Shown piece by piece: positions 8,570 to 34,938 of a DNA stretch of 55,887 nucleotides (within the stretch, counting starts at the first letter, position 1; each line of letters starts with the position of its first letter). Below the pieces are notes generated by a model. It was not told where the DNA came from, did no database searches, and saw only the letters and a program-made list of their open reading frames with translations. The DNA is from Kofleriaceae bacterium (GTDB lineage Bacteria; Myxococcota_A; Polyangia; Haliangiales; Haliangiaceae). Location of the stretch: NCBI GenBank assembly GCA_046597055.1, contig JBKJLC010000290.1, positions 1 to 55,887 on the forward strand, read 5' to 3'. Both the position numbers and the translations under genes were made by a program.

Positions 8570-10597
8570 CTACTTCTTCGACGGTGGCGGCCTGGTCGGG
8601 GTCGGCGCCACGCGCTGGATCGCCTGGGCCTTCTCCTGGTCGACCTGGGCCTGCGACGGCGCCGCCTGTGGCACGGGGCCATCGGCCTGGTTGGGGCTGG
8701 CTGGCGCCACGTTGGCGGCGGGCGGGCCCGGCAGGTTGCCGGCCGCCGGGTCGTCGTCGACGGGGAGGTTCGGCGCGACCTTGCTGGGTCGCTGCTTCCC
8801 GTTGGTCGGCTTCTGGCTCGGCGGCGGGGCGGGCTTGTCGTCGTCGCCGGGGCCGCTCACGGGCACCGGGCCCGCGCCGGCGCGTGACTCGGCGGTCGTG
8901 CTGCGGGTCGAGGCACCCGCCACCCGCGCCAGGGTGCGAGCCTCGCCCCAGTCGATCGAGTCGACCACGCAGCGACCGTCGATCAGGTCGTAGCGGGCGC
9001 GCTGCTTGCGGATGGCGAGCGCGTCGGCGACCGGGTCGTAGTGGTACTCGGCGTGGAGCGCCAGGTGACACGACGGTTCGTCGGGGGCGCGCTCGTCGAT
9101 GTGCGGCTCGCTGGCGGTGAACGCGACGCCGCGATCGTCGGCCGGGACGAACTCGAAGAAGCGCAGGAACTGGCGGGGCCCGCGCGCGACCTCGAGCCGG
9201 AAGCCCGCGACCTGCTCGCCGCGCCGCTCGAACGCGCGAAAGCCGCCGTCGGGGAGCGCCCACACGCCCTCGAAGCCGGCGACCGCGGCCAGGGTCGCCG
9301 CGACCGCGACCGGATCGCCGGGGCTGGCGATCGCCGTGCGCTGCACGGTCGCGTAGCCCGGCTTCGACAGCTCGAGGTGCACCGCCTCGCCGGGGGCGGC
9401 GTCGACCAGGAGTGGGGTGACGCCGAGGTCCTTGCCGTCGCGCCGCACCCGCGCGCCCGCCGGCGTGGTGGTCACCTGCACCAGCACGGTCCCGGCCCCG
9501 GGCGTGGGCGCGCGCAGCGCTGGGGTGCGTCCGGCCCCGGCCACGACGACCACCCCCCCGACCACCACGACCACCGCGGCCGCGCCGACCGCGAGCCACG
9601 GCATCCGACCGGTCCGCGGTGGCAGGTGGCCGCCGCGGCCCCCGAGGCCCTCGGCGAGATCGGCGACCAGCGCCACCGCGGTCGGGTGGCGATCGCCGGG
9701 CTCCTTGGCCAGCGCGCGCGCGAACACGCGGTCGAGGGCGGGCGACAGCGCGGTGCCGCTCGCGGTCACCGACGGCACCGCGGCGCGGAAGTGCTGCTCC
9801 ATCATCGCGGGCAGGGTGGTGGCGCGGAACGGGACCTTGCCGGTCAAGAGCTCGTACGCGACGATGCCGAGCGCGTAGCGATCGGACGCGCCGCTGGCGC
9901 CGTCGGCGCTCCACTGCTCGGGCGCCATGTAGGCCGGCGTGCCGAGCCAGGCGCCCTGCCCGGTCAGGGTCTCGACCACCCGCGCGCCGCTGGCGTCGGC
10001 CAGCAGCTTGGCGATGCCGAAGTCGAGGACGTGTGCGGCCGGCCGGTCGGCGGGGCCGGTCACGACGATGTTGTCGGGCTTGAGATCCCGATGGACCACG
10101 CCCTTGCCGTGGGCCACGTCGAGGGCCTCGGCGACCTGGCCCAGGATGGCGAGCGCGATCGCGGGCGCCAGCGGTCCGGTCCGCAGCCGCTCGCGCAGCG
10201 ACTCGCCGGCCAGCAAGTCCATCACGAGGTAGAGGCGGCCGTCGTCGAGGCGGCCCAGCGCGAACACGTCGACCACGCTCGGGTGATCGACCTGATTGAC
10301 CGCGCGCGCCTCGCGCAGGAACCGCTCGGCCGAGTCAGCGCGGGTGGCGAGCTCGCGCTTGATGACCTTGATCGCGACCCGTTTGCCGATCACCGGGTGC
10401 AGGCCGGCGTACACGTCGCCCATCGCGCCGGCGCCGATGTGGCGCTCGACGACGTAGTCACCGACCACGTCACCACCGGCGAGCCGCTCGGCGCTGGTGG
10501 CCGCCGGCCCGGCCGGCCGCGCCGGCCGCGCCGGCCGCGCCGGATCGAGGACCGTCGGGTCCTGGGCGAGGCGGTCCTTGGCGGTCATGCGGTTCAT
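8570..10597 (-). CDS. Membrane Ser/Thr protein kinase with PEGA domain
   Basis: IGAGAMGDVY, VAIK, HRDLKPDN, DFG, GTPAYMAPEQ; TM segment (WLAVGAAAVVVVVGGVVVVAG); PEGA-like VTTTPAGARVRRDGKDLGVTP. Confidence 0.92.
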   Translation of the reverse strand: MNRMTAKDRLAQDPTVLDPARPARPARPAGPAATSAERLAGGDVVGDYVVERHIGAGAMGDVYAGLHPVIGKRVAIKVIKRELATRADSAERFLREARAVNQVDHPSVVDVFALGRLDDGRLYLVMDLLAGESLRERLRTGPLAPAIALAILGQVAEALDVAHGKGVVHRDLKPDNIVVTGPADRPAAHVLDFGIAKLLADASGARVVETLTGQGAWLGTPAYMAPEQWSADGASGASDRYALGIVAYELLTGKVPFRATTLPAMMEQHFRAAVPSVTASGTALSPALDRVFARALAKEPGDRHPTAVALVADLAEGLGGRGGHLPPRTGRMPWLAVGAAAVVVVVGGVVVVAGAGRTPALRAPTPGAGTVLVQVTTTPAGARVRRDGKDLGVTPLLVDAAPGEAVHLELSKPGYATVQRTAIASPGDPVAVAATLAAVAGFEGVWALPDGGFRAFERRGEQVAGFRLEVARGPRQFLRFFEFVPADDRGVAFTASEPHIDERAPDEPSCHLALHAEYHYDPVADALAIRKQRARYDLIDGRCVVDSIDWGEARTLARVAGASTRSTTAESRAGAGPVPVSGPGDDDKPAPPPSQKPTNGKQRPSKVAPNLPVDDDPAAGNLPGPPAANVAPASPNQADGPVPQAAPSQAQVDQEKAQAIQRVAPTPTRPPPSKK

Positions 10598-10749
10598 GGT
10601 AGCGCGGCTGGCCGGCAGCCACCGGTCCAGCGATCCACGCACGGGGACGCCGGCGCCGGAGTCAGGTTGCGGTCAGGCGCGCTGGCCGGCGGCGGCAGCG
10701 AACCAGCGGACCCGCGGCTGCCGCGCGACCCTGCCGTCGCCGGGACCGG

Positions 10750-20587: not shown

Positions 20588-20629
20588 ACCGGTCACAGGC
20601 GGACCGAGACCGGTCACAGGCGGACCGAG
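20588..20629. repeat. Perfect 21-bp tandem duplication spanning the vWA gene stop codon
   Basis: ACCGGTCACAGGCGGACCGAG at 20588-20608 and 20609-20629. Confidence 0.95.
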
Positions 20630-22065
20630 CGTTTCTTCCCGTCGGTCGGCGCCGGTGGCGGCACATCGCCCTCGACGGTGGCGGTCGCGACCCGCGACGC
20701 ACTGGGCAGGCCTCCCAGCGCGGCCTCGACCTCGTGCAGCCGGGCGTCGTCGGTGCCGAGATCTTTCAGGTCCTTCACGTAGGTGTCGAGGTCGACCTTG
20801 CCGTCGGAGATCGCCAGCGCGCCGAGCAGCACGTCGATGATCGACTTGGGGTCTCCGACCCTGATGATGTGCTCCTTCGGGATCACCGTCGCCCACTGCG
20901 CGAGCACGACGTCGTCGGAGTAGTTCTTGTAGACCTGCTCCTGATCGGCCTGGCGCCGGCCCTGGTCGGGCGAGTAGTCGAACTCGGCGACCACGATGTC
21001 GCTGGCATCGCCGGTCTGGCCGTTGGGGGAGATCACGCCGTCGACGTGCTGGATCTCGCCCCCGATCTCGAGCTCGACCTTGAACGGGGTCGGCTGCTTG
21101 TCGGCCTCGTGAAAACTGAAGTTCCGGACCCAGACCTTGTAGCGCCCGGCCGGCGCCTTGCCCTTGGACCAGCGCACGTTCTCGACCGGCTTGGTGCTCT
21201 GGCCGCCCACGTTCATGTCGATGTCGAGCCAGCCGCCACAGCTCGACTGCTTGGCGCCGTAGTAGACGTGCTCCTTGGAGGGCGCGAGCACGTGCAGGTC
21301 GAGGTCGTTGCGGTTGTTCCAGATCAGCGACGCGCGCACGTCGACGCCATCGTACTGACCGCCGCCGCCGGTGACGCGCGCCTTGATCTCGGCGTCGATG
21401 TTCGACTTGCGCTCGGCCATCGTCTTCTGCGGGTACAGCAGGAAGACGTGAAACTTCTCCTGCAGCCGCCGGAAGGCCTCGCCAGCGTCGAGATCGGCCT
21501 CGAGGTCGTCGCCGATGATCCGCTTGACCGACGCCTTGTCGAGCTTCGGGTAGAAGCCCTCGTCACCGACGAAGAAGAAGTAGCCCTTCTTGCCGGTGCC
21601 GGCGGCCAGCTGCACCGCGTTGGTCCGGCTGTAGAAGTAGGCGGCCAGCTCGTAGCTCTCCTGGCCGGTGCCGCCGCCGCCCTCCTCGATCCAGATCCGC
21701 TGCAGGACCTCGTCGAGCCGGTTGTCGCCCTCGAACTGGCCGACCTGGAGCGGCGCGCGATCGGAGAACGCGTCGCCGATCGCGCAGAAGCTGATCCCGG
21801 GGTTCTCGGTGTAGCCCTTCAGCTCGATCTGCCCCATCAGCGCCGGCAGCTTGTCGTACATCAACTTGGTATCGTCGCCGCGCGAGCGGGTCACGTCGAG
21901 CGCGACCACGATCGGCGTGACGTTGTTGACCTCCCGCCGCTTGCCGTACGGGTTCAGCGCCGGATGGACGCTGGTCGGTCCGCTGGCGGCCGGCGCCTGG
22001 AAGGCGGCGTTGTTGCCAGAGCGATACTCCTGCGCGATGTCGAGGCTGTAGCGACCACCACCCAT
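20614..22065 (-). CDS. vWA-fold protein with inserted YfaP/DUF2135-like domain
   Basis: PIVVALDVTRSRG (MIDAS-like DxTxS), AIGD, GGGG..QESY, FFVGDE; insert SLIWNNRNDLDLHVLAP...GGWLDIDMN...PVENVRW...GRYKVWV. GGGAGA upstream of the ATG. Confidence 0.8.
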   Translation of the reverse strand: MGGGRYSLDIAQEYRSGNNAAFQAPAASGPTSVHPALNPYGKRREVNNVTPIVVALDVTRSRGDDTKLMYDKLPALMGQIELKGYTENPGISFCAIGDAFSDRAPLQVGQFEGDNRLDEVLQRIWIEEGGGGTGQESYELAAYFYSRTNAVQLAAGTGKKGYFFFVGDEGFYPKLDKASVKRIIGDDLEADLDAGEAFRRLQEKFHVFLLYPQKTMAERKSNIDAEIKARVTGGGGQYDGVDVRASLIWNNRNDLDLHVLAPSKEHVYYGAKQSSCGGWLDIDMNVGGQSTKPVENVRWSKGKAPAGRYKVWVRNFSFHEADKQPTPFKVELEIGGEIQHVDGVISPNGQTGDASDIVVAEFDYSPDQGRRQADQEQVYKNYSDDVVLAQWATVIPKEHIIRVGDPKSIIDVLLGALAISDGKVDLDTYVKDLKDLGTDDARLHEVEAALGGLPSASRVATATVEGDVPPPAPTDGKKRSVRL

Positions 22066-22106
22066 GCTGTGTTCTCCCGGTCAGAGGTCTCGGCGTGTCG
22101 GCGCGC

Positions 22107-23726
22107 TCAGAGCTCGAGCGGCACGAACTCGTGCGCGCCCCAGATCTGCGCGCGGATCTTGTCGACCTGGAGGTACAGCTCCCAGGCGTCTTGCGGCCGG
22201 CCGCCCTGCGACTCGACCGCCAGGTACTTGAGGAACCGCGCCAGCCGCGGATCCATCTCGGGCAGGGTCTTGGCGGCCGGATCGCCGCCGGCGGCGTGGA
22301 TCATCACCTTGCCGAGCGCGTACAGGTCCGACGCCGGCGTCGGCTTGCCACGCGACGCCACCTCGGGCGGGCTGTACAGCTCGTTGTGGGCCTTGAAGCC
22401 CTGCCCGGTCGTCGCCGGGTTCACCACCGCCCAGCACCAGTCGATCATCCACAACATGTGGTCGTGGGGCCGGATCAAGATGTGGGCGGGATCGAGGTTG
22501 CCGTGCAGGATGCCGTGCTTGTGGGCCCAGCCCAGGGCGGCGAGCGCGCGGCGCAGCACCCAGACCAGGTGGCGCGGCGGCAGGCCGGGCTCGCCCCGCT
22601 TGCGGCAGCGGTCGCGGACCTGGGTCAGGTCGTAGCCGTCGAGGTGATCGAACACGGTGCCGAGGCGGCCGTCGCCGGTTCGGAACTGATCGCGCGGCGG
22701 CGCGAAGTGGATGACCGGCCCACCGCCGCCCGGCGGCGCGGCCACCGCCGCGCCCGCGATCAGCATGCCGAGCACGCGGGTCTCGTGCTGGAGCAGATCG
22801 TTGTCGCTGGTCTGATCGGCGATCTTGAGCGCGACCTGCACCGGCGGCTGCGACTCGCGCACGTGACCGCCATAGACCGTGGCGATGTCACCCTGGGCCA
22901 GCGTGGACGTGATCTGGTAGGTCGCGCGCTCGGTCTTCACCGCGAACTCGACCCGGCGCGGGTTGGTCGCCCCGGCGGCGCGCCGCGCGCTCGGCGCGCG
23001 GATCGCGACCAGCGCGATCGGCTGCCAGTCGCCGTCGTCGGGCCCGATCAGGCCGCCACGATCACCGCCACCGAAGGTGGAGCGCGAGTTGTCGACCACG
23101 CGCGCCGCCGATTGATCGATGTTGACGACCTGGACCTGCGGGCCGTCGCCGCCGACCCGCAGGTGAACGTCCTGGAAGGTGTAGCGGCTCAGCTCGCCCA
23201 TCAGATCGACCACCCGCAGCTCGCCGGCGAGCTCGTGGAAGCCGGCGCGCGTCGGCGCGACCGGCACCGCCAGTACTGTGGGTCGACCCGGGAAGATCGT
23301 CGCGGTCTCGACCGGCGCGAGCGGCTCGCCCGACAGGGTCGGGGCCAGCGTGAAGCTCTCGAACGCGAGCGGGCCGTCGTTCTCGACCCGCAGCCGGACC
23401 AGCCCACGAGCGCCCACCGCGAGGTGGCGCAAGGTGGCGACATCGATCGCGATCCGGATCGACGGCGGCGGCGGTCGCTCGGGCGCGAGTTGCCCGCACG
23501 CGGCGGCGTGGGTCGCGAGCGAGACGCCGAGGCGCACGCGCAGGGTCTCGAGCTGATCTTGCTTGAGATCGTCGAGACCGCCGTCGGCGAGGAACCGCGT
23601 GAGCACCTCGCGATAGCGCGTCACCGCCTCCGGCGTCTCGACCGACGTCGGCTGGCGCGCCCCGCACGCACCGCAGAACGCGGCACCATCGCGCAGGCTG
23701 AGCTTGCACCCCACACAGTCGGCCAC
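22107..23726 (-). CDS. Zinc-ribbon plus kinase-fold protein, atypical or pseudo Ser/Thr kinase
   Basis: N-terminal CVGC...FCGACG; C-terminal LAQGDIATVY, VALK, HGNLDPAHIL, IDWCW, YSPPE, SDLYALG. Confidence 0.82.
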   Translation of the reverse strand: MADCVGCKLSLRDGAAFCGACGARQPTSVETPEAVTRYREVLTRFLADGGLDDLKQDQLETLRVRLGVSLATHAAACGQLAPERPPPPSIRIAIDVATLRHLAVGARGLVRLRVENDGPLAFESFTLAPTLSGEPLAPVETATIFPGRPTVLAVPVAPTRAGFHELAGELRVVDLMGELSRYTFQDVHLRVGGDGPQVQVVNIDQSAARVVDNSRSTFGGGDRGGLIGPDDGDWQPIALVAIRAPSARRAAGATNPRRVEFAVKTERATYQITSTLAQGDIATVYGGHVRESQPPVQVALKIADQTSDNDLLQHETRVLGMLIAGAAVAAPPGGGGPVIHFAPPRDQFRTGDGRLGTVFDHLDGYDLTQVRDRCRKRGEPGLPPRHLVWVLRRALAALGWAHKHGILHGNLDPAHILIRPHDHMLWMIDWCWAVVNPATTGQGFKAHNELYSPPEVASRGKPTPASDLYALGKVMIHAAGGDPAAKTLPEMDPRLARFLKYLAVESQGGRPQDAWELYLQVDKIRAQIWGAHEFVPLEL

Positions 23727-23815
23727 GGCCGAGCGTTACACGAAGGAAGGCCTGCGTGCCCACCGGATCGCGGCAGCGCTTGGGGTATCGTGGTGACCAG
23801 GGGGGCACGACGACG

Positions 23816-25984
23816 ATGCCGGACACCACACCTTGCCCGCAGTGCGGGAGCGCCACCGACGCCGGCGCCAGCTTCTGCGCGGCCTGCGGCGCCAGCACGG
23901 CCGCGCACATGCAGTGCCCGAGCTGCAACAGCCTCAACCCGATGGGCAACCGGTTCTGCAACCGGTGCGGCGGCTCGCTCGAGCACGCCGGCTGGGCCGG
24001 TCAGCCCGCCACCAGCGGGGTCGTCGACGGTGTGTGGGAGCGCGGCGGCGACGAGCTGATCCGCCGGGTCGATCCCGAGGACGCGCGGCGCTACCTCGGC
24101 ACCCGCGCCGTCCGGGTGCCGGCCGGCACCGTCGGCGTGGTCCTGGTCGACGGCGTGGTCGAGCGCATCCTGCCGCCCGGCGAGCGCACCACCATCGGCG
24201 TATTCGAGCGCATCGCCAACTTCTTCCTCGGCCGCGACCGCACCGCCTTCTACCTGGTCGATCAGCGCACGTTTCCGGTGCCGTTCGTGGTGCAGACCCG
24301 ACCGAGCCCCTCCGGCCACGTGGTGAAGACCCAGGTGCTGGTCACGTTCACGCTGCCGCGCGGCGATCGCGCGGCGCTCGGCAACTTCATCGCCAACGTG
24401 CTCGGGCCGCGGCCGGCGTTCTCGACCGGCGACCTCTACAACCTGTTGCGGCCCGAGGTGGTCCGGGTCGCGCAGGAGGCGCTCGAGCGCGCGGTCGCGG
24501 TCAGCCCCGACGGCCAGATCTCGTATCCCGACGTCGAGGCGGCGATCCGCGCGACCCTGACCGGCGTGGTCGGCCCGCACTACGGGCTCACCGTCGACGC
24601 CACGGTCGCCCCGCTGACGCGGGTGGCCAGCCTGGCGGTGCGGCTCGGCACCGGCGCGGCGCCGCGGGTGCGGCCGTGCGCCAGCTGCCGTCGCGAGCTG
24701 CCGATCTCGCTCCGCTTCTGCGACGCGTGTGGCGGCAAGCAGCCCAGCTTCGTGGTCGGCGGCGACCCCACCGATCAGACGCCGCTGTTCACCGCCGACG
24801 CCCAGCAGATCGAGCTCGAGCTGGTGGTGCGGGTCCAGGGCCAGCACGACGACTTCGGCGCGGACGCGGTCGCGCCCGCGCTGGTCGGCGCCGCCCAGGC
24901 CCACCTGCGCGCGACCGACTTCGCGACCCTGACCGGGCCCGGCGGCTTCGGCGCGCTCGAGCAGGCGATGGCGCCGGCGACGGTGGCGGCGCTGGCCAGC
25001 CTTGGCCTGACCCTGGTCGCGGTCGCGGTGGTCGACGCCCGCACCAAGACCGGCAACTGGCTCTTGTCGGCGCGGGCTGACCTCGACCGCGCCCGCGAGG
25101 ACGTGCGGCTCGGGCGGTCGTGGCTCGAGCAGCGCGACACCGAGCTCGATCTCGAGGCGCTGACCCTGACCCGGATCCTGCGCGAGCAGCGGCTGCATCG
25201 CGACCAGGCGTTCGCCCGCGACGACGAGGCCGCCGCCGACCGCGAGCGCCGCGATGGCCTCGCCGCCCGCGACGCCACCCTCGCGGTGGCGGCCGCGCAG
25301 CGCGCCGGCGCGACCCGGACCGCGGTCGACCAGGTCGAGCAGGACCGGCAGCGGCGCGAGCTCGCGCACGCCACCGAGCTGCGCCGCACCAAGGTGCAGG
25401 CCGAGCTCGACGAGCTCACCGCCCGGCGCGACCTCGACTTCGCCGACGGCGAGCGGCGCAAGCGGCTCGAGCTCGAGCTGGCGGCGGTCGCCGAGGCCCA
25501 GCAGCTCGACAAGCTGCGCGCGATGGCCGAGCTCGACCGCCAGACCACTGCGCAGGAGCAGGCCCACGAGCTCGAGAAGCGGCGGATGCTGCAGGGCCTC
25601 ACGCCCGACGAGATGATCGCGCTCCAGGCGGCCGAGCTGGCCCGCACCGAGGGCGGGGGTGCGGCGTGGGCCAACATCCTCGCTCAGCGCGCGAACGCCG
25701 AGACCGAGCGTCGCCACGCCGACGACACCCGCGGGCTGCTCGAGCGGCAGCAGGCGCACACGACCGCGCTGGCCGACAAGGCGATGGGCTCGATGGCCGA
25801 GGTCGCGCGGTCGCGGGCCGAGGCGGCGCCGGTGATCGCCGGCGGGGTTGGCGCCCCGGTGGTCACCGTCGCCACCGGCAGCGGCACCGCCACCGCGGCG
25901 CCGGCGCGCCCGTGCAAGGCGTGCGGCGCCGGGCTCAAGGCCGACGCCGGCTTCTGCGGCGCGTGCGGCGCGTCGCACGGGTGA
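23816..25984 (+). CDS. Multi-zinc-ribbon, SPFH/band-7-like, coiled-coil protein
   Basis: Four zinc-ribbon motifs (two N-terminal, one internal, one C-terminal); VRVPAGTVGVVLVDG...LPPG SPFH-like start; long Glu/Arg/Ala-rich coiled coil. The SPFH call is by resemblance only. Confidence 0.7.
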   Translation: MPDTTPCPQCGSATDAGASFCAACGASTAAHMQCPSCNSLNPMGNRFCNRCGGSLEHAGWAGQPATSGVVDGVWERGGDELIRRVDPEDARRYLGTRAVRVPAGTVGVVLVDGVVERILPPGERTTIGVFERIANFFLGRDRTAFYLVDQRTFPVPFVVQTRPSPSGHVVKTQVLVTFTLPRGDRAALGNFIANVLGPRPAFSTGDLYNLLRPEVVRVAQEALERAVAVSPDGQISYPDVEAAIRATLTGVVGPHYGLTVDATVAPLTRVASLAVRLGTGAAPRVRPCASCRRELPISLRFCDACGGKQPSFVVGGDPTDQTPLFTADAQQIELELVVRVQGQHDDFGADAVAPALVGAAQAHLRATDFATLTGPGGFGALEQAMAPATVAALASLGLTLVAVAVVDARTKTGNWLLSARADLDRAREDVRLGRSWLEQRDTELDLEALTLTRILREQRLHRDQAFARDDEAAADRERRDGLAARDATLAVAAAQRAGATRTAVDQVEQDRQRRELAHATELRRTKVQAELDELTARRDLDFADGERRKRLELELAAVAEAQQLDKLRAMAELDRQTTAQEQAHELEKRRMLQGLTPDEMIALQAAELARTEGGGAAWANILAQRANAETERRHADDTRGLLERQQAHTTALADKAMGSMAEVARSRAEAAPVIAGGVGAPVVTVATGSGTATAAPARPCKACGAGLKADAGFCGACGASHG

Positions 25985-27246
25985 GCCCGCGGATCCAGGT
26001 CGTCGTCGGGCTCGGCTTCGGCGACGAGGGCAAGGGCACCGTGGTCGACTGGCTGGCGCGGCAAGCGGCCACGCCGCCGCTGGTGGTGCGCTGGAACGGC
26101 GGCCCCCAGGCCATGCACCACGTCGTCACCGATGACGGCCGCACCCACTGCTTCGCGCAGCTCGGCGCCGGCTCGTTCGTCGCGGGTGCCCGCACGCACC
26201 TCGGGCCCGCGATGGCGGTCGATCCGTACGCGCTGCACGCCGAGGCGGCGGCGCTGGCCGCGGTCGGCGTCGCCGGCGCGCTCGCGACGGTGACCCTCGA
26301 TCCGCGCGCGATCCTGGTCACGCCGTGGCACGCGATCGTCAATCGCATCCGCGAGCTGCTGCGCGGCGACGCTCGTCATGGCTCCACCGGCCGCGGCGTG
26401 GCCGAGGCCAAGCTCGGCCCGGTGACGGTGGTCGCCGGCCAGATCGGTCGCGACCTGGCCGATGACGTCGCGCGCCTGCGCGGCGCGCTCGCCGATCAGG
26501 CCGCCGCGCTGATCGCGGCGCACCCGGCCCCGACCGCGGCGGCCCGCGGGCTGGCCGCCCGCGCTGCCGATCCCGACCTGGTCGCCGCCTTCCTCGACGC
26601 GTCCCACGCGCTGGCCCGGACCGGCGTCGCGATCACCGCCGACGTCCCGCGCGCCGCGCACGTCATCCTCGAGGGCGCGCACGGCGCCCTGCTCGATCAA
26701 GATCACGGCTTCTTTCCGCACGTCACGCCGAGCCGGGTCACCCGCGCCGCGGCCGAGGACGCCGCGCGCGCGATGGGGCTGGCCGGCTCGCTCGAGGTCT
26801 GGGGCGTGCTCCGCGGGTATCACACCCGCCACGGCGAGGGCCCGTTCCCATCGCAGGCGCCCGACCTCCACGCCCGGCTGCCCGAGCGCCACAACCCGAG
26901 CGACGGCTGGCCCGGCGCCTTCCGGGTCGGCTGGTTCGACCGCGTGCTCGCCCGCCACGCGCTCGGGTTCGCCGGCCCGATCGACCGACTGGCGGTCACC
27001 TGCCTCGATCGCCTGGCTGCGCTGGATGGCGTCCAGGTCGCCACCGCCTGGCAGACCCACGCCGGCCCGCTCGCGGATCTTGGCGCGGTTCCGTCCGGAC
27101 ACCGGACAGCCGTCGCCGCCACCGCCACGCCCGTCCTGCGCCCGGTGTCCGATGCGGCCGCCGCGATCGCCGCCCTGCTCGACCGGCCGATCGACCTGGC
27201 GTCATGGGGCCCGACCGCGTCGGCCAAGCGCGATCAGCGCCGGTAG
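25981..27246 (+). CDS. Divergent adenylosuccinate synthetase (PurA)-like ligase
   Basis: GTG start overlaps the upstream TGA (GTGA). VVGLGFGDEGKG, VVRWNGGPQAMH, HGSTGRG, ILEGAHGALLDQDHGFFPHVT, YHTRHGEGPFPS, RVGWFD, TCLD, SWGP. Confidence 0.88.
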   Translation: MSPRIQVVVGLGFGDEGKGTVVDWLARQAATPPLVVRWNGGPQAMHHVVTDDGRTHCFAQLGAGSFVAGARTHLGPAMAVDPYALHAEAAALAAVGVAGALATVTLDPRAILVTPWHAIVNRIRELLRGDARHGSTGRGVAEAKLGPVTVVAGQIGRDLADDVARLRGALADQAAALIAAHPAPTAAARGLAARAADPDLVAAFLDASHALARTGVAITADVPRAAHVILEGAHGALLDQDHGFFPHVTPSRVTRAAAEDAARAMGLAGSLEVWGVLRGYHTRHGEGPFPSQAPDLHARLPERHNPSDGWPGAFRVGWFDRVLARHALGFAGPIDRLAVTCLDRLAALDGVQVATAWQTHAGPLADLGAVPSGHRTAVAATATPVLRPVSDAAAAIAALLDRPIDLASWGPTASAKRDQRR

Positions 27247-30650: not shown

Positions 30651-33600
30651 TCACGGTCCGAATGGCACCAGCAGCGCGGTCATGCGCCCGGGCGCGCGGA
30701 TCCCCAGGGCATCCATGTCGACGGTCGCCGCGGCCTCGAGCTCGGGCAGGTCGCGTAGCTCGGCGAGGCGGCGCCGCACCGCGGCGGTGGTCAGCAACAT
30801 CTCGGCGGCGACCGCGCCGGCCTCGGCCTCGTCGAGGATCTCGGCGGCCAGCGCCCGATCGCCGCCCGCGACCGCCACCCCGGCGCGGACCAGGAGCGCC
30901 CACACCTGGGCGACCGGGTTGTCGACCTTGGCCAGCTCGCGGGCATGGCGCTCGGCCTGACGCAGGTCATCGGCGACGATCGCGAGCCGGCCGCGCAGGT
31001 ACGCATGCTGGGTGCGGATGCTGGCGATCCGCAGCAGCATCGAGCCGCCGAGCCGGGCGAAGCCGTCGGCGAGCCGGGCGCGATCGGCCGGCTCACCGGT
31101 GTAGAGCGCGATCTCGCCGCGGGCGATCAGCTCGTGGAAATGCTGCACGTGGTAGCTGGCGGTATCGGGGACCCAGGTCGCCCGCTCGAGCTCGCGCGCG
31201 GCCTCGGCCGGAGCATCGTCGGCCAGCCACATCGGGACGCACACCCGTCGCATCGACGAGTCGAGGTAGAGGTCGCCCTTCTCGACCGCCTCGGCGTGAT
31301 ACTGGTGGTAGCGACGCCGCATCTCGTTGTAATCGCCGATGAAGCGCAGCGCGTACATCGTGAACAGCTTGCACGTCGAGACCTGCCAGTTCTGGCCCAG
31401 CACCTGCCGGGCCGAGGCCTCGGCCAGCGCCATGTGCTCGATGCAGCCGCGGGCATCGCCGCTGAAATAGGCGATCGTCGCGCGCGCACCGTGGGCCATC
31501 GTCTGCGCCGCGAGGTCCAGGTGCTCGCCTCCGATCGCGAGCCCGCGCTCGCGCAGCTTCTGCGCCCAAACAATGTTGCCGTGGGTCGACTGGTAGATGG
31601 CCTCGGTCAGCACCGCCTGGGCGATGTCGGTCCGATGGCCGATCTTGAGGGCCAGCAGGAGATGGCGGGTCTGGAAGTCGGCGCCGCGGATCGAGTCGAC
31701 CAGCGCCAGGCCATGGGCCGCTCCCCGCAGCAACTCGAGCTTGAGGAGCTCCGCGTCGGCGATCTCGCGGCGATGCCGCTCCGTGAAGCGAAAGCCACGG
31801 AGCCGCAGCTGGAGCCGATGCCGCAGCAGCGACGCCAGCGCGCGGCGCGGGGTCGCGGGCACGCCCTCACCGACCTCGCCGAGCACCTCCTCGAGCGCCG
31901 CGACCCCGCGCGTGATCCGGCCGCTGATCAGCAGCTGCTCGGCCGCGTGGCGCTGGCAATCGAGCCGGGTCGCCCGGTCAGCCCCGACCGCGGCCTCGAG
32001 GTGGACCTCGGCGGCCTCGGCGCCCCGGCCGGCGGCGATCAACGCCTCGCCGAGCCGGATCAGGAGCCGACGTCGATCGTCGACCGAGCGCGGCACCAGC
32101 TCGAGCGCGTTGCGCCACAGCTCGGCGGCCTGGTCGAAGGCATGGGCGTCGAGGCTCCGCAGCGCAGCCTCCTCGGCGTAGCGGGCGGCGCGGTCGGGCA
32201 GCTCGGCGAGGCGGAAGTGGCGCAGCAGCAACTGCGGGTCACGGGCCTCGCCGCTTCCCTCGAGCGCCGCCGCCAACCGGGCGTGGAGATCGCGGCGTGC
32301 CGGCGTGCTCAGCCGGCCCTGCACCGCCTCGCGGACCCGGTCGTGATACGGCTCGAGCGCCAGCCCGCGACCGCGGTGGAGCTCGCGGACCAGGCCGGCG
32401 ACCCGCAGCGACGCCGCGGCCCGACCCAGCGCGGTCGGATCGAGCCGGGACGCCGCGGCCGCGACCTCGGCGCCGATCGGCGCGCCGGCGACACACACCA
32501 CCTCGAGCAGCGTGTGCGCGTCGGGGCGCAGTCGCGCGGCCCGGGCCAGCAGGGCGTCGTCGAGAGTCGAGGTCGGCGCCCCGCTGACGTCGAGGTGGCG
32601 CAGGATCTCCTGCAGGAACATCGGGTGACCACCGACCTCACGGCTGACCCTCGCGATGTCGATCGCGCCCAGGCCGGTCGGCGCCAGCTGCTCGGCCAGC
32701 ACCCGGCACTCGTCCTCGCTGAGCGGCCCGAGGTCGGTGCGAGCCACGACCAGACCGTCGAGGCGCGCCTCGATCGGCTCGGCGTGCGGCCCGCTGGGAC
32801 GGGCGGTGGCCAGCACCAGCACCGGCACCGAGTTGGGCCCGCGCAGGAGCTCGCGCAGCAGCAGGAAGCTGTCGGCGTCGGCCCACTGCAGATCGTCGAT
32901 GGTGATGACGACCCGGCGCCGCTCGGTCACCCGCGACAGCAGGCCGCGCAGGGCGCGGAACATGCGACGCCGCTGTTCCTGCGGGTCACCGCCCTCGTCC
33001 ACGAACGGCGCCGACGCGATCGAATCGTTGCGCAGGAACACCGGAAACAGCCGGACCAGGAGCGCGGCGCGCGGCGGCAGCAGCCCCGCGACCTCGGCCG
33101 GCGTGAGCCCACTCAGGTGCTGGGCGAGGCCATCGGCGACGCCGTCGAGGGCCTTGTACGGCACCGACTCGCGCTCGTAGCAACGCCCGTGCAGCACCAG
33201 CGCGTCGGGGTCGGCGTCGGCGATCGACCGCACGAAGTGGCTCATCAGCTCCGACTTGCCGATGCCAGATTCGCCGACCACCAGGTGCACCACCGCCCGG
33301 TCGGTGGCCCGCTCGCGCGAGGCCGCCAGCTCGCCCTGTTCGCGCTCGCGTCCGACGAAGACGCCGCTGGCCGAGCGGAACGAGCGGGTCGAATCACGCA
33401 CCGGCTCGCCATCGACCACGCCGAGCCGGCTGACGATCTCGCGGCCGGTGGGCCGGGTCGCCGGCTCGATACGGAGCAGGTCGTCGCACAGCGCGGCGAG
33501 GTCGGGCGGCGCATCGGGCGCCCGCTGCTGCACCGGCGCCGGCACCACCTGCTGCTTGTCGATCAGGATCTGCAAAGCATGCCCGGCGTGGGGCATCTGC

Positions 33601-34199
33601 CCGGTCAGCGCCTCGTAGAGCATGACCCCGATCGAGTACCAGTCGGCCGACTCGCCGATGGTCCGACCGACCGCCTGCTCGGGCGCCATGTACTCGACGG
33701 TCCCGACCGCGTGGCCCTGCCTCGATTGCCCGGCCGGGTCGAGCGGGGTGACCAGGCCGAAATCGAGGAGTACGACCCGGCCCTCGTCGGTCACCATCAC
33801 GTTCGACGGCTTGATGTCGCGATGGATCAGTCCGGCCTGGTGCAGGGCCCGCAACCCGACCACCAGCTGGCCGAGCCCGTCGCGCAGCCGGCCGTGGTCA
33901 CCACGGGTGTACTCGAGGAAGTGGGAGCCCTTCACCAGCTCCATGGTGAAGAACCACTGCTCCCCATCACGGACCAGCTCGCGCAGCGAGACCAGGTTCG
34001 GGTGCGCGGTCGACTGCAGGGCGCGGAACTCGCGCTTGAAGCGGAACAACGTGTCGGCATCGGCGCGGACCAGCGTCTTCAGCGCCACCACCTCACCGGT
34101 GTCGCGGTCAAGCGCCTCGTAGACATCGCCCATCCCACCGGAGCCGATGCGGCGCCTCAACTCGTAGCGCTCGGCAAGTTGGGGGTCGGCGATCTTCAT
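30651..34199 (-). CDS. Ser/Thr kinase fused to STAND/AAA ATPase and helical repeats
   Basis: IGSGGMGDVY, HRDIKPSN, DFG, YMAPE; FVGRERE, Walker A GESGIGKS, Walker B IDDLQWAD, GGHPMFL. Confidence 0.92.
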   Translation of the reverse strand: MKIADPQLAERYELRRRIGSGGMGDVYEALDRDTGEVVALKTLVRADADTLFRFKREFRALQSTAHPNLVSLRELVRDGEQWFFTMELVKGSHFLEYTRGDHGRLRDGLGQLVVGLRALHQAGLIHRDIKPSNVMVTDEGRVVLLDFGLVTPLDPAGQSRQGHAVGTVEYMAPEQAVGRTIGESADWYSIGVMLYEALTGQMPHAGHALQILIDKQQVVPAPVQQRAPDAPPDLAALCDDLLRIEPATRPTGREIVSRLGVVDGEPVRDSTRSFRSASGVFVGREREQGELAASRERATDRAVVHLVVGESGIGKSELMSHFVRSIADADPDALVLHGRCYERESVPYKALDGVADGLAQHLSGLTPAEVAGLLPPRAALLVRLFPVFLRNDSIASAPFVDEGGDPQEQRRRMFRALRGLLSRVTERRRVVITIDDLQWADADSFLLLRELLRGPNSVPVLVLATARPSGPHAEPIEARLDGLVVARTDLGPLSEDECRVLAEQLAPTGLGAIDIARVSREVGGHPMFLQEILRHLDVSGAPTSTLDDALLARAARLRPDAHTLLEVVCVAGAPIGAEVAAAASRLDPTALGRAAASLRVAGLVRELHRGRGLALEPYHDRVREAVQGRLSTPARRDLHARLAAALEGSGEARDPQLLLRHFRLAELPDRAARYAEEAALRSLDAHAFDQAAELWRNALELVPRSVDDRRRLLIRLGEALIAAGRGAEAAEVHLEAAVGADRATRLDCQRHAAEQLLISGRITRGVAALEEVLGEVGEGVPATPRRALASLLRHRLQLRLRGFRFTERHRREIADAELLKLELLRGAAHGLALVDSIRGADFQTRHLLLALKIGHRTDIAQAVLTEAIYQSTHGNIVWAQKLRERGLAIGGEHLDLAAQTMAHGARATIAYFSGDARGCIEHMALAEASARQVLGQNWQVSTCKLFTMYALRFIGDYNEMRRRYHQYHAEAVEKGDLYLDSSMRRVCVPMWLADDAPAEAARELERATWVPDTASYHVQHFHELIARGEIALYTGEPADRARLADGFARLGGSMLLRIASIRTQHAYLRGRLAIVADDLRQAERHARELAKVDNPVAQVWALLVRAGVAVAGGDRALAAEILDEAEAGAVAAEMLLTTAAVRRRLAELRDLPELEAAATVDMDALGIRAPGRMTALLVPFGP

Positions 34200-34272
34200 G
34201 GAGGTAGGCCTGCGAGCGCTCCCGAGACCCCGTTCATGATACCGGACCTGGCCGCGGGGTGTGCCCGCCGGG

Positions 34273-34938
34273 TCAGGCCCGTCGTCCGAGATAGATGACG
34301 TGGGTGCGGCCGCCCTTGCCCGCGCGGTGCATCGAGACCTCGAACCGTGCGGCCGCGAACCGCCGGGCGAACCCGGCGTCGGGATCTTCGGACCACACCG
34401 CCAGCGCCCCACCGGGCGCGAGCGCGTTGTGACTGCGCGCCAGCGCGCCCGATCCGTAGAACGGATCGTCGCGCTGCTGGGTCGCGGCGTTCGGGCCCTC
34501 GTACAGGTCGAGCAGGATCGCGTCGTAGCTACCGGCCGGCGCGCGGGTGATGATCGCCGCGACGTCGCCGAGCTCGACCCGGACCCGCGGATCGAGCACG
34601 GCACCGGCGGTGAGCCCGGCCAGCGGCCCGCGACACCAGGCCTCGACCTCGGCGTGCAACTCGGCGACCACGACGCTGGCCGTGGCGGGCACCACGTCGA
34701 GCGCGGCGCGCAGCGTGTATGCCATGCCGAGGCCCCCGATCAGCACCCGCGGCCTGGGCCGGCCCTTGACGTGCGCCAGCCCCAGGGTCGCCAGCGACTC
34801 CTCGGAGCGACGGGCAGCGCTGGTCATCAGCACCCGACCCCCGACGACGATCAGGAACTCCTCATCGCCGCGCTGGCGCAGCTCGAGCGCGCCCTCGTCG
34901 GTGGGTACGGTCGCGAGCGTTCGCCAGGGTCGAGCCAT
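34273..34938 (-). CDS. Spermidine-synthase-like SAM-binding protein
   Basis: RVLIGGLGMAYTL, YDAILLDLYEGP, LAPGGALAVWS. Confidence 0.85.
   Translation of the reverse strand: MARPWRTLATVPTDEGALELRQRGDEEFLIVVGGRVLMTSAARRSEESLATLGLAHVKGRPRPRVLIGGLGMAYTLRAALDVVPATASVVVAELHAEVEAWCRGPLAGLTAGAVLDPRVRVELGDVAAIITRAPAGSYDAILLDLYEGPNAATQQRDDPFYGSGALARSHNALAPGGALAVWSEDPDAGFARRFAAARFEVSMHRAGKGGRTHVIYLGRRA

What the first reader, a model, noticed from the sequence alone, without database searches (positions are those of the whole stretch)
20614..27246. Candidate undescribed system: vWA, pseudokinase, zinc-ribbon SPFH-like protein and non-canonical PurA-like ligase
Seen: two gene pairs diverge from an 89-bp gap (23727-23815). 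The kinase and vWA genes are 41 bp apart. The SPFH-like and PurA-like genes overlap by GTGA. Both lead genes start with the same zinc-ribbon type (FCGACG / FCAACG), and no purine-biosynthesis genes are nearby. Each member departs from its family norm (see the separate findings). Established: vWA, kinase-fold and SPFH domains recur in bacterial stress and conflict systems (e.g. Ter-associated), and PurA paralogs have been repurposed (PurZ). From memory, unverified: similar vWA/atypical-kinase/PurA-like neighbourhoods exist in other bacteria without a known function. Inference: a membrane-scaffolded sensing or defence module whose output is a modified purine nucleotide or a nucleotide-protein conjugate.
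Basis: partly seen in the sequence, partly recalled or inferred. Interest (0 to 1): 0.9.

Follow-up and report, generated by a model that had tools for sequence, protein, structure and literature searches.

The report
vWA, dead-kinase, SPFH, PurA-like gene module
Four neighbouring genes in this myxobacterial genome are a local, enlarged version of a widespread but undescribed gene set, shared with hundreds of large phages, whose enzyme is a relative of the purine enzyme PurA that has lost its aspartate pocket and always travels with a metal-binding vWA protein.

Summary
Folds or profiles confirm all four domain calls: a vWA protein, a kinase-fold protein without the catalytic Asp, a zinc-ribbon SPFH protein with a long coiled coil, and a divergent PurA paralogue. 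A canonical purA lies on another contig. The four genes stay together in every relative with enough flank. The ZnSPFH gene sits beside the PurA-like gene in 17 of 17 loci, while outer flanks differ.

The core is not myxobacterial. vWA followed by PurA-like is colinear in 77 of 80 IMG/VR loci, about 216 isolate phages, 21 megaplasmids, CPR and Bacteroidota contigs. A J-domain pseudokinase or a ~120-aa helical protein lies upstream.

Across the family the GTP P-loop, catalytic Asp/His and guanine-specifying Asp are kept. The aspartate-binding loop is replaced. The vWA partner has a near-invariant Met-Gly N-terminus.

I read it as a GTP-driven purine-nucleotide ligase using a non-aspartate amine, working with its vWA partner. 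Its role is probably nucleotide rewiring in phage-host conflict.

Eight literature searches found no description. This scan has met the module before on other DNA. The four-gene SPFH form is the new part here.

The parts
20614..22065 (-). vWA-like protein (483 aa) with a MIDAS motif (DVTRS), an N-terminal Met-Gly, and a ~155-aa beta-rich insert (residues ~235-390) of DUF2135/YfaP type that is specific to the Myxococcota form
   Evidence: Pfam, PADLOC and NCBIfam give no hit. It matches phrog_2971 (160 bits) and phrog_1735 for the insert. The alignment with the 305-aa forms shows the insert. The fold of the short form is vWA / integrin beta-I. JGI names relatives 'YfaP (DUF2135 family)'.
22107..23726 (-). 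Zn-ribbon + helical + beta-rich region + C-terminal kinase-fold domain without the catalytic Asp (539 aa), read as a pseudokinase
   Evidence: Pkinase 32 bits, phrog_3043 'kinase' 90 bits, and weak PD-T4-6 / MAD6 matches. HGNLDPAH and DWC replace HRD and DFG. Relatives in phages and CPR also lack the HRD Asp and carry an N-terminal J-domain-like HPD motif instead of the Zn ribbon.
23727..23815 (.). 89-bp divergent intergenic region between the two gene pairs
   Evidence: Sequence read. Short conserved blocks (TACACGA; CGGTATCGTGG) appear in 4-5 orthologous loci, but no clear palindrome.
23816..25984 (+). Zinc-ribbon SPFH-like protein (722 aa from the ATG): two N-terminal Zn ribbons, an SPFH domain split by a third Zn ribbon, a ~250-residue coiled coil, and a C-terminal Zn ribbon
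   Evidence: DZR 55.9 bits; Band_7 only E=0.026. The AF2 model and Foldseek hits to prohibitin, flotillin, HflK/C and stomatin support the fold. The Atlas neighbours are Zn-ribbon + Band_7 clusters (a lead only). It lies next to the PurA-like gene in 17 of 17 loci.
25981..27246 (+). PurA-like ligase (421 aa): GTP P-loop and catalytic residues kept, aspartate loop replaced
   Evidence: PF00709 191 bits; NCBIfam purA 168 vs 402; PurZ 54.5 vs 300. The best PDB matches are adenylosuccinate synthetases at only ~109 bits. The canonical purA lies elsewhere in the genome.

Best explanation
The locus is the Myxococcota-specific, four-gene elaboration of a widespread undescribed module. The module's obligate core is a MIDAS-bearing vWA protein followed by a PurA-family enzyme, usually preceded by a pseudokinase.

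Proposed mechanism:
- The PurA-like protein still binds GTP and still phosphorylates the C6 carbonyl of an inosine/guanosine-type purine nucleotide. This is inferred from the kept P-loop, catalytic Asp and His, and guanine-specifying Asp.
- It then displaces the phosphate with an amine other than L-aspartate, because the aspartate loop is replaced family-wide by a different conserved loop.
- The vWA protein is its working partner and either presents or holds the second substrate or target. This is inferred from the near-absolute gene linkage and from one natural fusion.
- The catalytically dead kinase domain acts as a nucleotide-sensing or scaffolding regulator. In phages it carries a J domain; here it carries a Zn ribbon.
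- In the Kofleriaceae-type form, a ring- or cage-forming SPFH protein bearing the same Zn-ribbon type organises the assembly.

The physiological role is most likely rewiring or repair of purine (possibly NAD-linked) nucleotide pools during phage-host conflict. The module would have been taken over from large phages and kept as a sporadic chromosomal accessory unit.

What is shown: gene linkage, folds, motif retention and loss, and distribution. What is inferred: substrates, product, physical complex and physiological role.
For: Linkage of the core pair:
- vWA then PurA-like is colinear in 77 of 80 IMG/VR loci seeded with the vWA protein. The 3 exceptions end 0.1-1.6 kb after the vWA gene.
- In isolate phages the two families occur in the same groups: Mycobacterium 200 vs 201 records, Rhizobium 10 vs 10, Vibrio 6 vs 6. 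They are adjacent in the 3 phage records inspected.
- In a 201-genome sample of the phylum, all 8 genomes with a PurA-like gene also have the vWA-like gene. Of the 15 genomes with a vWA-like match, 12 have the two genes together.
- One 776-aa protein fuses the vWA domain (N-terminal) to the PurA-like domain.

Linkage of the four-gene form:
- It is conserved in L003, L004, L006 and L007, in G129 and in the metagenome loci L131 and L135.
- ZnSPFH followed by PurA-like is found in 10 of 10 metagenome loci.
- ZnSPFH was found in only 2 of 201 sampled genomes, both at the module.
- The outer flanks differ between loci.

Enzyme:
- GDEGKG, the His equivalent to His41, EGxQG, TRHGxGP and the Asp of TCxD are invariant or nearly so in 58 aligned members.
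- The canonical GATTGRPRR loop is replaced by ETN...(W/F/H)QGxFR, Asn38 becomes Gln and Lys331 becomes Cys.
- A separate canonical purA is present in this genome and in 5 of 5 other module-bearing genomes checked.
- In a quick tree the canonical PurAs form their own clade (support 100). The four-gene PurA-likes form one clade (93) nested among compact Myxococcota triads.

Partners:
- The vWA fold and the DxTxS MIDAS motif are confirmed.
- The kinase-like proteins lack the HRD Asp throughout.
- The SPFH fold is supported.

Context pointing to nucleotide metabolism:
- A NUDIX gene lies adjacent in 4 of 5 plasmid loci inspected.
- NADAR, NMNAT/Nudix and PRTase genes lie near the phage copies.
Against: - No biochemical datum exists. 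Substrates, product and complex formation are all inferred.
- The window itself has His in place of the Gln224-equivalent (EGAHG), so activity in this particular copy is less certain.
- No NUDIX or NAD gene lies on the window's contig: the genome has 14 NUDIX hits and none is on C32. None was found in the 23 flank proteins scanned from 7 Myxococcota loci. The NAD link may therefore not apply here.
- The family could still use aspartate through a differently built pocket.
- The patchy distribution, the plasmid carriage, a Zn-ribbon protein with a weak caspase-like C25 match inserted in the G129 version and an AbiEii gene near the Acetobacter copy would fit a defence role instead.
- The tree is a quick search, with many rows of unusual composition and midpoint rooting only.
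- The residue numbering against E. coli PurA is recalled, not taken from a call.
Confidence: 0.45

Rival explanations
1. Anti-phage defence or abortive-infection system. The vWA, pseudokinase and SPFH assembly senses infection or envelope stress, and the PurA-like enzyme makes a toxic or signalling purine nucleotide.
For: - The distribution is sporadic. The same-genus genome G150 and the same-family genome G115 gave no match to the PurA-like, vWA-like or ZnSPFH queries.
- The module is carried on 21 megaplasmids.
- The kinase domain matches PD-T4-6, MkoA and MAD6 models weakly.
- The G129 version has an inserted Zn-ribbon protein with a weak Peptidase_C25 match.
- An AbiEii gene lies near the Acetobacter copy.
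- SPFH and vWA domains recur in conflict systems (established knowledge, recalled).
Against: - PADLOC gives no hit for the vWA, SPFH or PurA-like proteins.
- The core is carried by at least 553 IMG/VR contigs and by essentially all Bixzunavirus records. That fits a function useful to phages.
- In phages it lies among DNA ligase, R2K ATP-grasp, HAD and homing-endonuclease genes.
- The Myxococcota flanks are housekeeping-type genes.
- No transmembrane segment is evident.
Confidence: 0.2
2. NAD/ADP-ribose-linked salvage or counter-defence pathway. The module rebuilds or protects adenine-containing cofactors after NAD-depleting or adenine-deaminating immunity, and in bacteria it is controlled by or coupled to a NUDIX/NrtR protein.
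For: - A NUDIX gene lies adjacent in 4 of 5 plasmid loci. In Tsukamurella it overlaps the PurA-like gene by 4 bp, and in Rhodococcus it lies 8 bp after it.
- The Rhizobium phage copy lies 3 kb from PRTase-like and NMNAT/Nudix genes, and the Vibrio phage copy lies next to a NADAR gene.
- Earlier notes of this scan report NrtR sites at other copies (not tested here).
Against: - No NUDIX or NAD-salvage gene was found on the window's contig or in the Myxococcota flanks scanned.
- Among the recurrent neighbours in the 80 viral loci, no NAD family appeared in the clusters scanned.
- No chemical step in NAD metabolism obviously needs PurA-type chemistry.
- I did not test any NrtR operator.
Confidence: 0.25
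3. An ordinary redundant adenylosuccinate synthetase isozyme that merely happens to sit beside unrelated genes.
For: PF00709 scores 191 bits and annotators call its relatives 'adenylosuccinate synthetase'.
Against: - It scores far below the purA equivalog cut-off, 168 vs 402.
- The aspartate loop is replaced.
- The canonical purA is present separately.
- Linkage to the vWA gene holds across phyla and phages.
Confidence: 0.03

Closest known systems
Adenylosuccinate synthetase PurA (EC 6.3.4.4; PF00709; solved e.g. 4m0g, 6jrq, 1ade)
   Same: Same fold family. It keeps the GDEGKG P-loop with the catalytic Asp, the catalytic His, EGxQG, TRxGxGP and the guanine-specifying Asp.
   Different: It scores 168 bits against a cut-off of 402 on the equivalog model. 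The aspartate-binding loop is replaced, Asn38 becomes Gln and Lys331 becomes Cys. It is always an extra copy beside a canonical purA, has no purine-pathway context and is obligately linked to a vWA gene.
PurZ, the phage 2-aminoadenine (Z-base) pathway enzyme
   Same: It is a PurA paralogue repurposed by phages, which sets a precedent for changed substrate use in this family (PMC12884076, search listing and abstract only).
   Different: The NCBIfam PurZ model scores 54.5 bits against a cut-off of 300. PurZ still uses aspartate (recalled). No PurZ partner genes were seen among the neighbours annotated here.
Bixzunavirus (cluster C1 mycobacteriophage, e.g. Gizmo gp267-gp270, Bxz1 gp250) 'kinase' / hypothetical / 'PurA-like adenylosuccinate synthetase' genes
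   Same: It is the same three-gene core in the same order. Its PurA-like protein groups with the Myxococcota/actinobacterial side of the tree.
   Different: The phage kinase-like protein has a J-domain-like HPD N-terminus instead of a Zn ribbon. The vWA protein lacks the DUF2135-like insert. There is no SPFH gene. The genes are colinear, not divergent. No function has been published (genome announcements only).
TerY-P triad (vWA protein TerY + PP2C phosphatase + Ser/Thr kinase; comparative-genomics prediction, recalled and not read here)
   Same: A vWA/MIDAS protein is coupled to a kinase-fold protein as a small conserved cassette.
   Different: No PP2C phosphatase is present. The kinase lacks its catalytic Asp. 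A nucleotide ligase occupies the third slot.
SPFH (Band 7) ring/cage scaffolds: HflK/C, prohibitin, flotillin, stomatin
   Same: An SPFH domain is followed by a long coiled coil. These are the top structural matches.
   Different: There is no N-terminal membrane anchor. Four Zn ribbons are present, one of them inserted in the SPFH region. The Pfam Band_7 hit is below threshold. No protease partner is present.
MoxR-vWA chaperone or conflict systems (Kaur et al. 2020 eLife, PMC7159879, listing and abstract only; Iyer et al. 2021, PMC7824862, passages read)
   Same: A vWA protein acts as an adaptor in phage and conflict contexts.
   Different: No AAA+ MoxR gene lies in the module. The jumbo-phage survey does not mention PurA or adenylosuccinate.

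Membership tests
Canonical adenylosuccinate synthetase (PurA) | Matches the family profile above the curated equivalog cut-off | tested here: not met
   NF002223 scores 168.1 vs 402 and TIGR00184 scores 138.7 vs 395.55. The Pfam domain PF00709 itself is met at 191 bits.
Canonical adenylosuccinate synthetase (PurA) | GTP P-loop GDEGKG with catalytic Asp, catalytic His, and guanine-specifying Asp | tested here: met
   GDEGKGT, GGPQAMHH and TCLD are present in P0004. These positions are invariant or nearly so in 58 family members.
Canonical adenylosuccinate synthetase (PurA) | Aspartate-binding loop (GxTTGRxRR; Thr300/Thr301/Arg303/Arg305 in E. coli numbering, recalled) | tested here: not met
   The canonical copy in this genome has GATTGRPRR. 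P0004 has SDGWPGAFR, and the family has ETN..(W/F/H)QGxFR.
Canonical adenylosuccinate synthetase (PurA) | It is the genome's purA and lies in a purine-biosynthesis role | tested here: not met
   A 539-bit canonical purA lies on contig C53. The same holds in 5 of 5 other genomes checked. No purine genes lie nearby. Complementation is not testable here.
PurZ (2-aminoadenine pathway) | Matches the PurZ model above its cut-off | tested here: not met
   NF038379 scores 54.5 vs 300.
von Willebrand A (vWA) domain | Rossmann-like vWA fold with a DxSxS-type MIDAS motif | tested here: met
   AF2 gives pLDDT 94. Foldseek finds 159 PDB hits at E<=1e-3, led by integrin beta-I and vWA domains, with TM scores around 0.45. 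D, T and S of DVTGS are invariant in 68 sequences. The Pfam vWA models do not hit.
Active Ser/Thr protein kinase | HRD catalytic Asp, metal-binding Asn, and DFG Asp | tested here: not met
   P0002 has HGNLDPAH and DWC. The consensus of 35 distinct relatives is H.G.NP and FYH. The fold-level match is Pkinase 32 bits and phrog_3043 90 bits.
SPFH / Band 7 | SPFH domain plus coiled coil | tested here: met
   The top Foldseek hits are prohibitin, flotillin, HflK/C, stomatin and erlin (18 hits at E<=1e-3), from a model of pLDDT 69. Pfam Band_7 gives only E=0.026.
SPFH / Band 7 | Membrane anchor | tested here: inconclusive
   A simple hydropathy scan finds no N-terminal hydrophobic helix. The most hydrophobic 19-mer (score 2.34, residue 408) lies inside the modelled SPFH core. 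No dedicated transmembrane predictor was available.
TerY-P triad | vWA + PP2C phosphatase + active kinase | tested here: not met
   No PP2C was found among the module or neighbour proteins scanned, and the kinase is inactive by motif.
Known anti-phage defence systems (PADLOC-DB 2.0) | Component proteins match a system's models | tested here: not met
   Only the kinase domain matches PD-T4-6, MkoA and mad6 models (best E 7e-15). The other three proteins have no hit.

The most novel reading that the evidence does not exclude
The PurA-like enzyme does not make a free metabolite. It uses the alpha-amine of the invariant N-terminal glycine of its vWA partner (exposed once the initiator Met is removed) in place of aspartate, and so couples a purine nucleotide through N6 to the protein. 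The result would be a nucleotide-tagged MIDAS adaptor: a new kind of protein-nucleotide conjugate, made by phages and, in Myxococcota, assembled on an SPFH cage through shared zinc ribbons.

The reading rests on three observations. 75 of 87 vWA ORFs start with MG, and 10 of the other 12 carry an MG a few residues in. The aspartate loop is lost. The only fusion found keeps the vWA N-terminus free.
Probability: 0.1. Interest if true: 0.95.

Novelty: categorically new. Interest (0 to 1): 0.8.

Why it matters
A PurA-family enzyme without an aspartate pocket is locked to a vWA protein in hundreds of large phages, in megaplasmids and in several bacterial phyla. That implies a piece of nucleotide chemistry that nobody has characterised. 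It may be a new purine modification, a one-step amination, or a protein-nucleotide conjugate, operating at the phage-host interface.

The Myxococcota form adds an SPFH scaffold and swaps the J domain for zinc ribbons, which gives a natural experiment on how the module is organised.

Tractable carriers exist: cluster C mycobacteriophages on M. smegmatis, Rhodococcus opacus 1CP, and Allorhizobium ampelinum S4. The chemistry is therefore directly testable.

Tried and rejected
- A complex prediction of the PurA-like protein with the vWA-like protein (CPR pair, with alignments A4 and A2) scored 0.01 against a mark of 0.32. That is no verdict, and I do not use it either way.
- A profile of 68 vWA-like sequences against PDB sequences found nothing meaningful; the best hit was E=0.3.
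- Pfam, PADLOC and NCBIfam gave nothing for P0001.
- The proteins upstream of the vWA gene in the Vibrio and Rhizobium phages are not kinase-like. They are Met/Gly-rich, have no Pfam hit and align poorly.
- The ~120-aa helical upstream protein has no Pfam hit.
- I rejected a prophage origin for the window locus. The neighbours are a desaturase, CFA synthase, DegT, a phosphoesterase, DAG kinase and Ser/Thr kinases.
- I looked for an operator in the 89-bp gap and found short conserved blocks only, with no palindrome.
- The careful tree search did not finish in the time allowed, so only the quick tree is reported. A first MAFFT run timed out, and an alignment inflated by over-long high-GC ORFs was replaced by an HMM-anchored one.
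- Eight literature searches and passages of two papers gave no description of the pair or triad.
- Supplements were not consulted.
- I did not test NrtR operators, expression data or sequencing runs.


Full report
**Observation.** The window is about 72% GC. Its closest relatives are Kofleriaceae and Myxococcales MAGs.
- 20614-22065(-), 483 aa
- 22107-23726(-), 539 aa
- 23816-25984(+), 722 aa from the ATG (an in-frame GTG lies at 23756)
- 25981-27246(+), 421 aa

The 41-bp spacer, the 89-bp divergent gap and the GTGA start/stop overlap were read directly. All four genes have GC3 of 0.92-0.97.

**What each protein is.**

*P0004 (PurA-like).* It is a PurA-family protein: PF00709 scores 191 bits. 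It is far below the NCBIfam equivalog cut-offs, 168 vs 402 for purA and 54.5 vs 300 for PurZ. It matches solved adenylosuccinate synthetases at only about 109 bits. The genome has a canonical purA on contig C53 at 539 bits.

*P0001 (vWA-like).* It hits nothing in Pfam, PADLOC or NCBIfam. It aligns with a ~305-aa family that carries an invariant DVTGS motif. The AF2 model of that family (pLDDT 94) matches integrin beta-I and vWA domains, with 159 Foldseek hits at E<=1e-3. The Myxococcota form has a ~155-aa insert. The insert matches phrog_1735, and JGI labels relatives YfaP/DUF2135.

*P0002 (kinase-like).* It has an N-terminal Zn ribbon and a C-terminal kinase fold: Pkinase 32 bits and phrog_3043 90 bits. 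HGNLDPAH and DWC stand where HRD and DFG should be.

*P0003 (SPFH-like).* It has strong double-zinc-ribbon hits and only a marginal Band_7 hit at E=0.026. Its AF2 model (pLDDT 69) has prohibitin, flotillin, HflK/C and stomatin as top matches, with 18 hits at E<=1e-3. About 250 residues of coiled coil follow the SPFH domain. A hydropathy scan shows no clear membrane anchor in any of the four proteins.

**Is the four-gene unit conserved?** Yes.
- Of five close genome-contig loci, four (L003, L004, L006, L007) carry all four genes in the same divergent arrangement. The fifth (L005) is cut inside the SPFH gene.
- The outer flanks are shared only with L004.
- In a 201-genome sample of the phylum, the ZnSPFH protein was found in 2 genomes (this one and G129), both times at the module.
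- Ten metagenome loci were seeded with the ZnSPFH alignment. All 10 have the PurA-like gene downstream on the same strand. All 5 with upstream flank have the divergent kinase gene, and both loci with enough flank have the vWA gene. This holds down to 39% ZnSPFH identity.

**The core is much wider than Myxococcota.**

*Bacterial contigs.* Distant genome-contig hits carry vWA-like followed by PurA-like in the same order. These are a 'Peribacteria' contig, an Absconditabacterales contig and a Chitinophagales contig. The two CPR loci also have a kinase-like gene in front.

*Size of the vWA-like family.* It has 2256 clusters at 50% identity with E<=1e-3, of which 927 are at <=1e-30. Most members are about 300 aa.

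*Isolate phages.* The vWA-like protein is found in 219 of 50,697 records and the PurA-like protein in 239. The counts by genus match:

| Phage host genus | vWA-like records | PurA-like records |
|---|---|---|
| Mycobacterium | 200 | 201 |
| Rhizobium | 10 | 10 |
| Vibrio | 6 | 6 |

In Gizmo the annotated order is kinase, hypothetical (vWA-like), a small ORF, then the PurA-like gene. The Vibrio and Rhizobium phages have the vWA-like gene followed by the PurA-like gene.

*IMG/VR.* At least 553 contigs encode a relative. Of the best 80 loci, 77 carry the PurA-like gene just downstream. The other 3 end 0.1-1.6 kb after the vWA gene.

*Upstream gene.* Across 86 loci (L008-L093, which include near-identical siblings), the upstream gene is a kinase-like protein in 44 and a ~120-aa helical protein ending in RYxYLFG in 31. 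Both are never present together, and 11 loci have neither. The kinase-like proteins have an N-terminal J-domain-like region with an invariant HPD. Its DnaJ hits are repeatedly sub-threshold at 17-19 bits. None has an HRD Asp. GIY-YIG homing endonucleases interrupt the pair in 14 loci.

*Plasmids.* Twenty-one megaplasmids carry the vWA-like protein. Five were inspected. Four show hypothetical, hypothetical, 'adenylosuccinate synthetase', and four have a NUDIX gene adjacent.

*Fusion.* One 776-aa protein fuses the vWA domain (N-terminal) to the PurA-like domain.

**Within the phylum.**
- PurA-like genes (E<=1e-60) occur in 8 of 201 genomes and vWA-like genes (E<=1e-10) in 15 of 201. All 8 PurA-like genomes have the vWA gene.
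- After fetching the loci, 12 of the 15 genomes show the two genes together, mostly as compact kinase, vWA, PurA-like triads.
- Two genomes with weak vWA matches (G125, G162) have no PurA-like gene within 6 kb. One genome (G075) had only a fragment match and was not fetched.
- The same-genus and same-family genomes gave no match to the PurA-like, vWA-like or ZnSPFH queries.
- Five of five other carriers keep a separate canonical purA. In one of them it is broken by stops in the assembly.
- A quick tree puts the canonical PurAs in one clade (support 100). The four-gene PurA-likes form one clade (93) nested among the compact Myxococcota triads (94), near the mycobacteriophage and Rhodococcus copies. 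The bulk of the viral and CPR copies form a separate clade (100). The careful search was unfinished, rooting is midpoint only, and many rows have unusual composition. The SPFH-bearing form therefore looks like a secondary elaboration.

**The enzyme.** In 58 aligned members, the following are invariant or nearly so:
- the P-loop G-D-x-G-K-G
- the His aligned with the catalytic His of PurA
- EGxQG
- TRHGxG
- the Asp of TCxD

Against this genome's own canonical PurA, the family shows three changes:
- GATTGRPRR is replaced by ETN...(W/F/H)QGxFR.
- The Asn of GGxNAGH becomes Gln.
- The Lys of TKLD becomes Cys.

By my recalled E. coli numbering, these are the aspartate loop (Thr300/301, Arg303/305), Asn38 and Lys331. 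The window's copy also has His for the Gln of EGAQG. The parts that bind GTP and phosphorylate the purine C6 oxygen are kept, and the part that holds aspartate is not.

**The vWA N-terminus.** Of 87 vWA ORFs, 75 begin with Met-Gly. Ten of the other 12 have an MG a few residues in, which suggests mis-set starts. One is a fragment and one is unclear. The conserved start reads MG(G/Y/S)xx(W/Y/F)S.

**Interpretation.** I commit to a GTP-driven PurA-type ligase that couples a 6-oxopurine nucleotide to an amine other than aspartate. It works with its vWA partner, with the dead kinase and (here) the SPFH protein as regulatory or scaffolding parts. Its role would lie in purine or NAD-linked nucleotide rewiring at the phage-host interface. 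My confidence is 0.45.

The linkage, folds, motifs and distribution are shown. The substrates, the complex and the role are inferred.

The NUDIX adjacency and the NAD genes near phage copies support a nucleotide-metabolic role. They are absent from this window and from the Myxococcota flanks scanned.

A defence role stays open at 0.2. In its favour are the patchiness, the plasmid carriage, a weak C25-like Zn-ribbon protein in G129 and an AbiEii neighbour. Against it are the dominance of phage carriers and the lack of PADLOC matches.

**Novelty.** Eight full-text searches and passages of the jumbo-phage survey and of a ParA-immunity preprint give no description. SEA-PHAGES-type annotations only name the genes.

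Earlier notes of this scan report the pseudokinase, vWA, PurA-like module on other DNA (59 findings hold the search words; the eight shown report it), including the lost aspartate site and an NrtR/NAD lead. I re-derived the former independently and tested the latter only through NUDIX adjacency.

What this window adds:
- the four-gene, divergent, ZnSPFH-bearing form, with Zn ribbons in place of the J domain and a DUF2135-like insert in the vWA protein
- the Met-Gly N-terminus
- the alternative 120-aa upstream partner

Noticed in passing
L008 1-14849 and L009 1-7664: Both CPR-labelled contigs need TGA read as an amino acid (table 25) for their flanking genes; for example, L008 9217-14847 has 58 in-frame TGA codons. 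The kinase-like, vWA-like and PurA-like genes contain no in-frame TGA, and the L008 PurA-like gene ends at a TGA. The module therefore looks code-neutral or recently acquired from a standard-code source, and the 'Peribacteria' label of L008 may be wrong.
   Followed up: partly
L022-L028 and other viral loci, between the vWA and PurA-like genes (e.g. L061 1826-2644): GIY-YIG/NUMOD homing endonuclease genes are inserted between the vWA and PurA-like genes in 14 of 86 loci. A LAGLIDADG gene lies upstream in 4 loci. This explains the variable spacing of the pair.
   Followed up: partly
L094 6394-7998 (G129, between the ZnSPFH and PurA-like genes): An extra 535-aa protein carries the same double zinc ribbon and a weak Peptidase_C25 (caspase-like) match. 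It is inserted into the four-gene module of one genome. L135 has a similar 2-kb gap.
   Followed up: no
L104 4646-10165 (G147): A compact triad with two tandem vWA-like genes lies next to a divergently oriented Myxococcota-type (insert-bearing) vWA gene. This looks like local duplication of the vWA partner.
   Followed up: no
L015-L021 and other viral loci downstream/upstream of the pair; L012 9566-10798; L062 5247-6833: Recurrent phage neighbours are an R2K-clade ATP-grasp (21 loci), ATP-dependent DNA ligase (21 loci), a HAD_SAK_2 phosphatase (15 loci) and TROVE/Ro-like proteins (about 5 loci). This is an RNA/DNA-repair flavoured neighbourhood.
   Followed up: partly
L110 8384-12882 (Allorhizobium ampelinum pAtS4e): Directly downstream of the triad lie an AAA family ATPase, a DUF5682 protein and a DUF4132 protein. 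A T6SS VgrG gene lies upstream.
   Followed up: no
window 30651-34604(-) and 8570-10642(-): Two large Ser/Thr kinases flank the region: one fused to an AAA_16/NACHT-like STAND ATPase (1317 aa), the other carrying a PEGA domain. They are not conserved with the module, except for a 41% identical STAND kinase in L004.
   Followed up: partly
window 25684-27102(-): A 472-aa antisense ORF with high GC3 overlaps the PurA-like gene. It is an artefact of high GC, because the PurA homology fixes the + strand as coding.
   Followed up: yes
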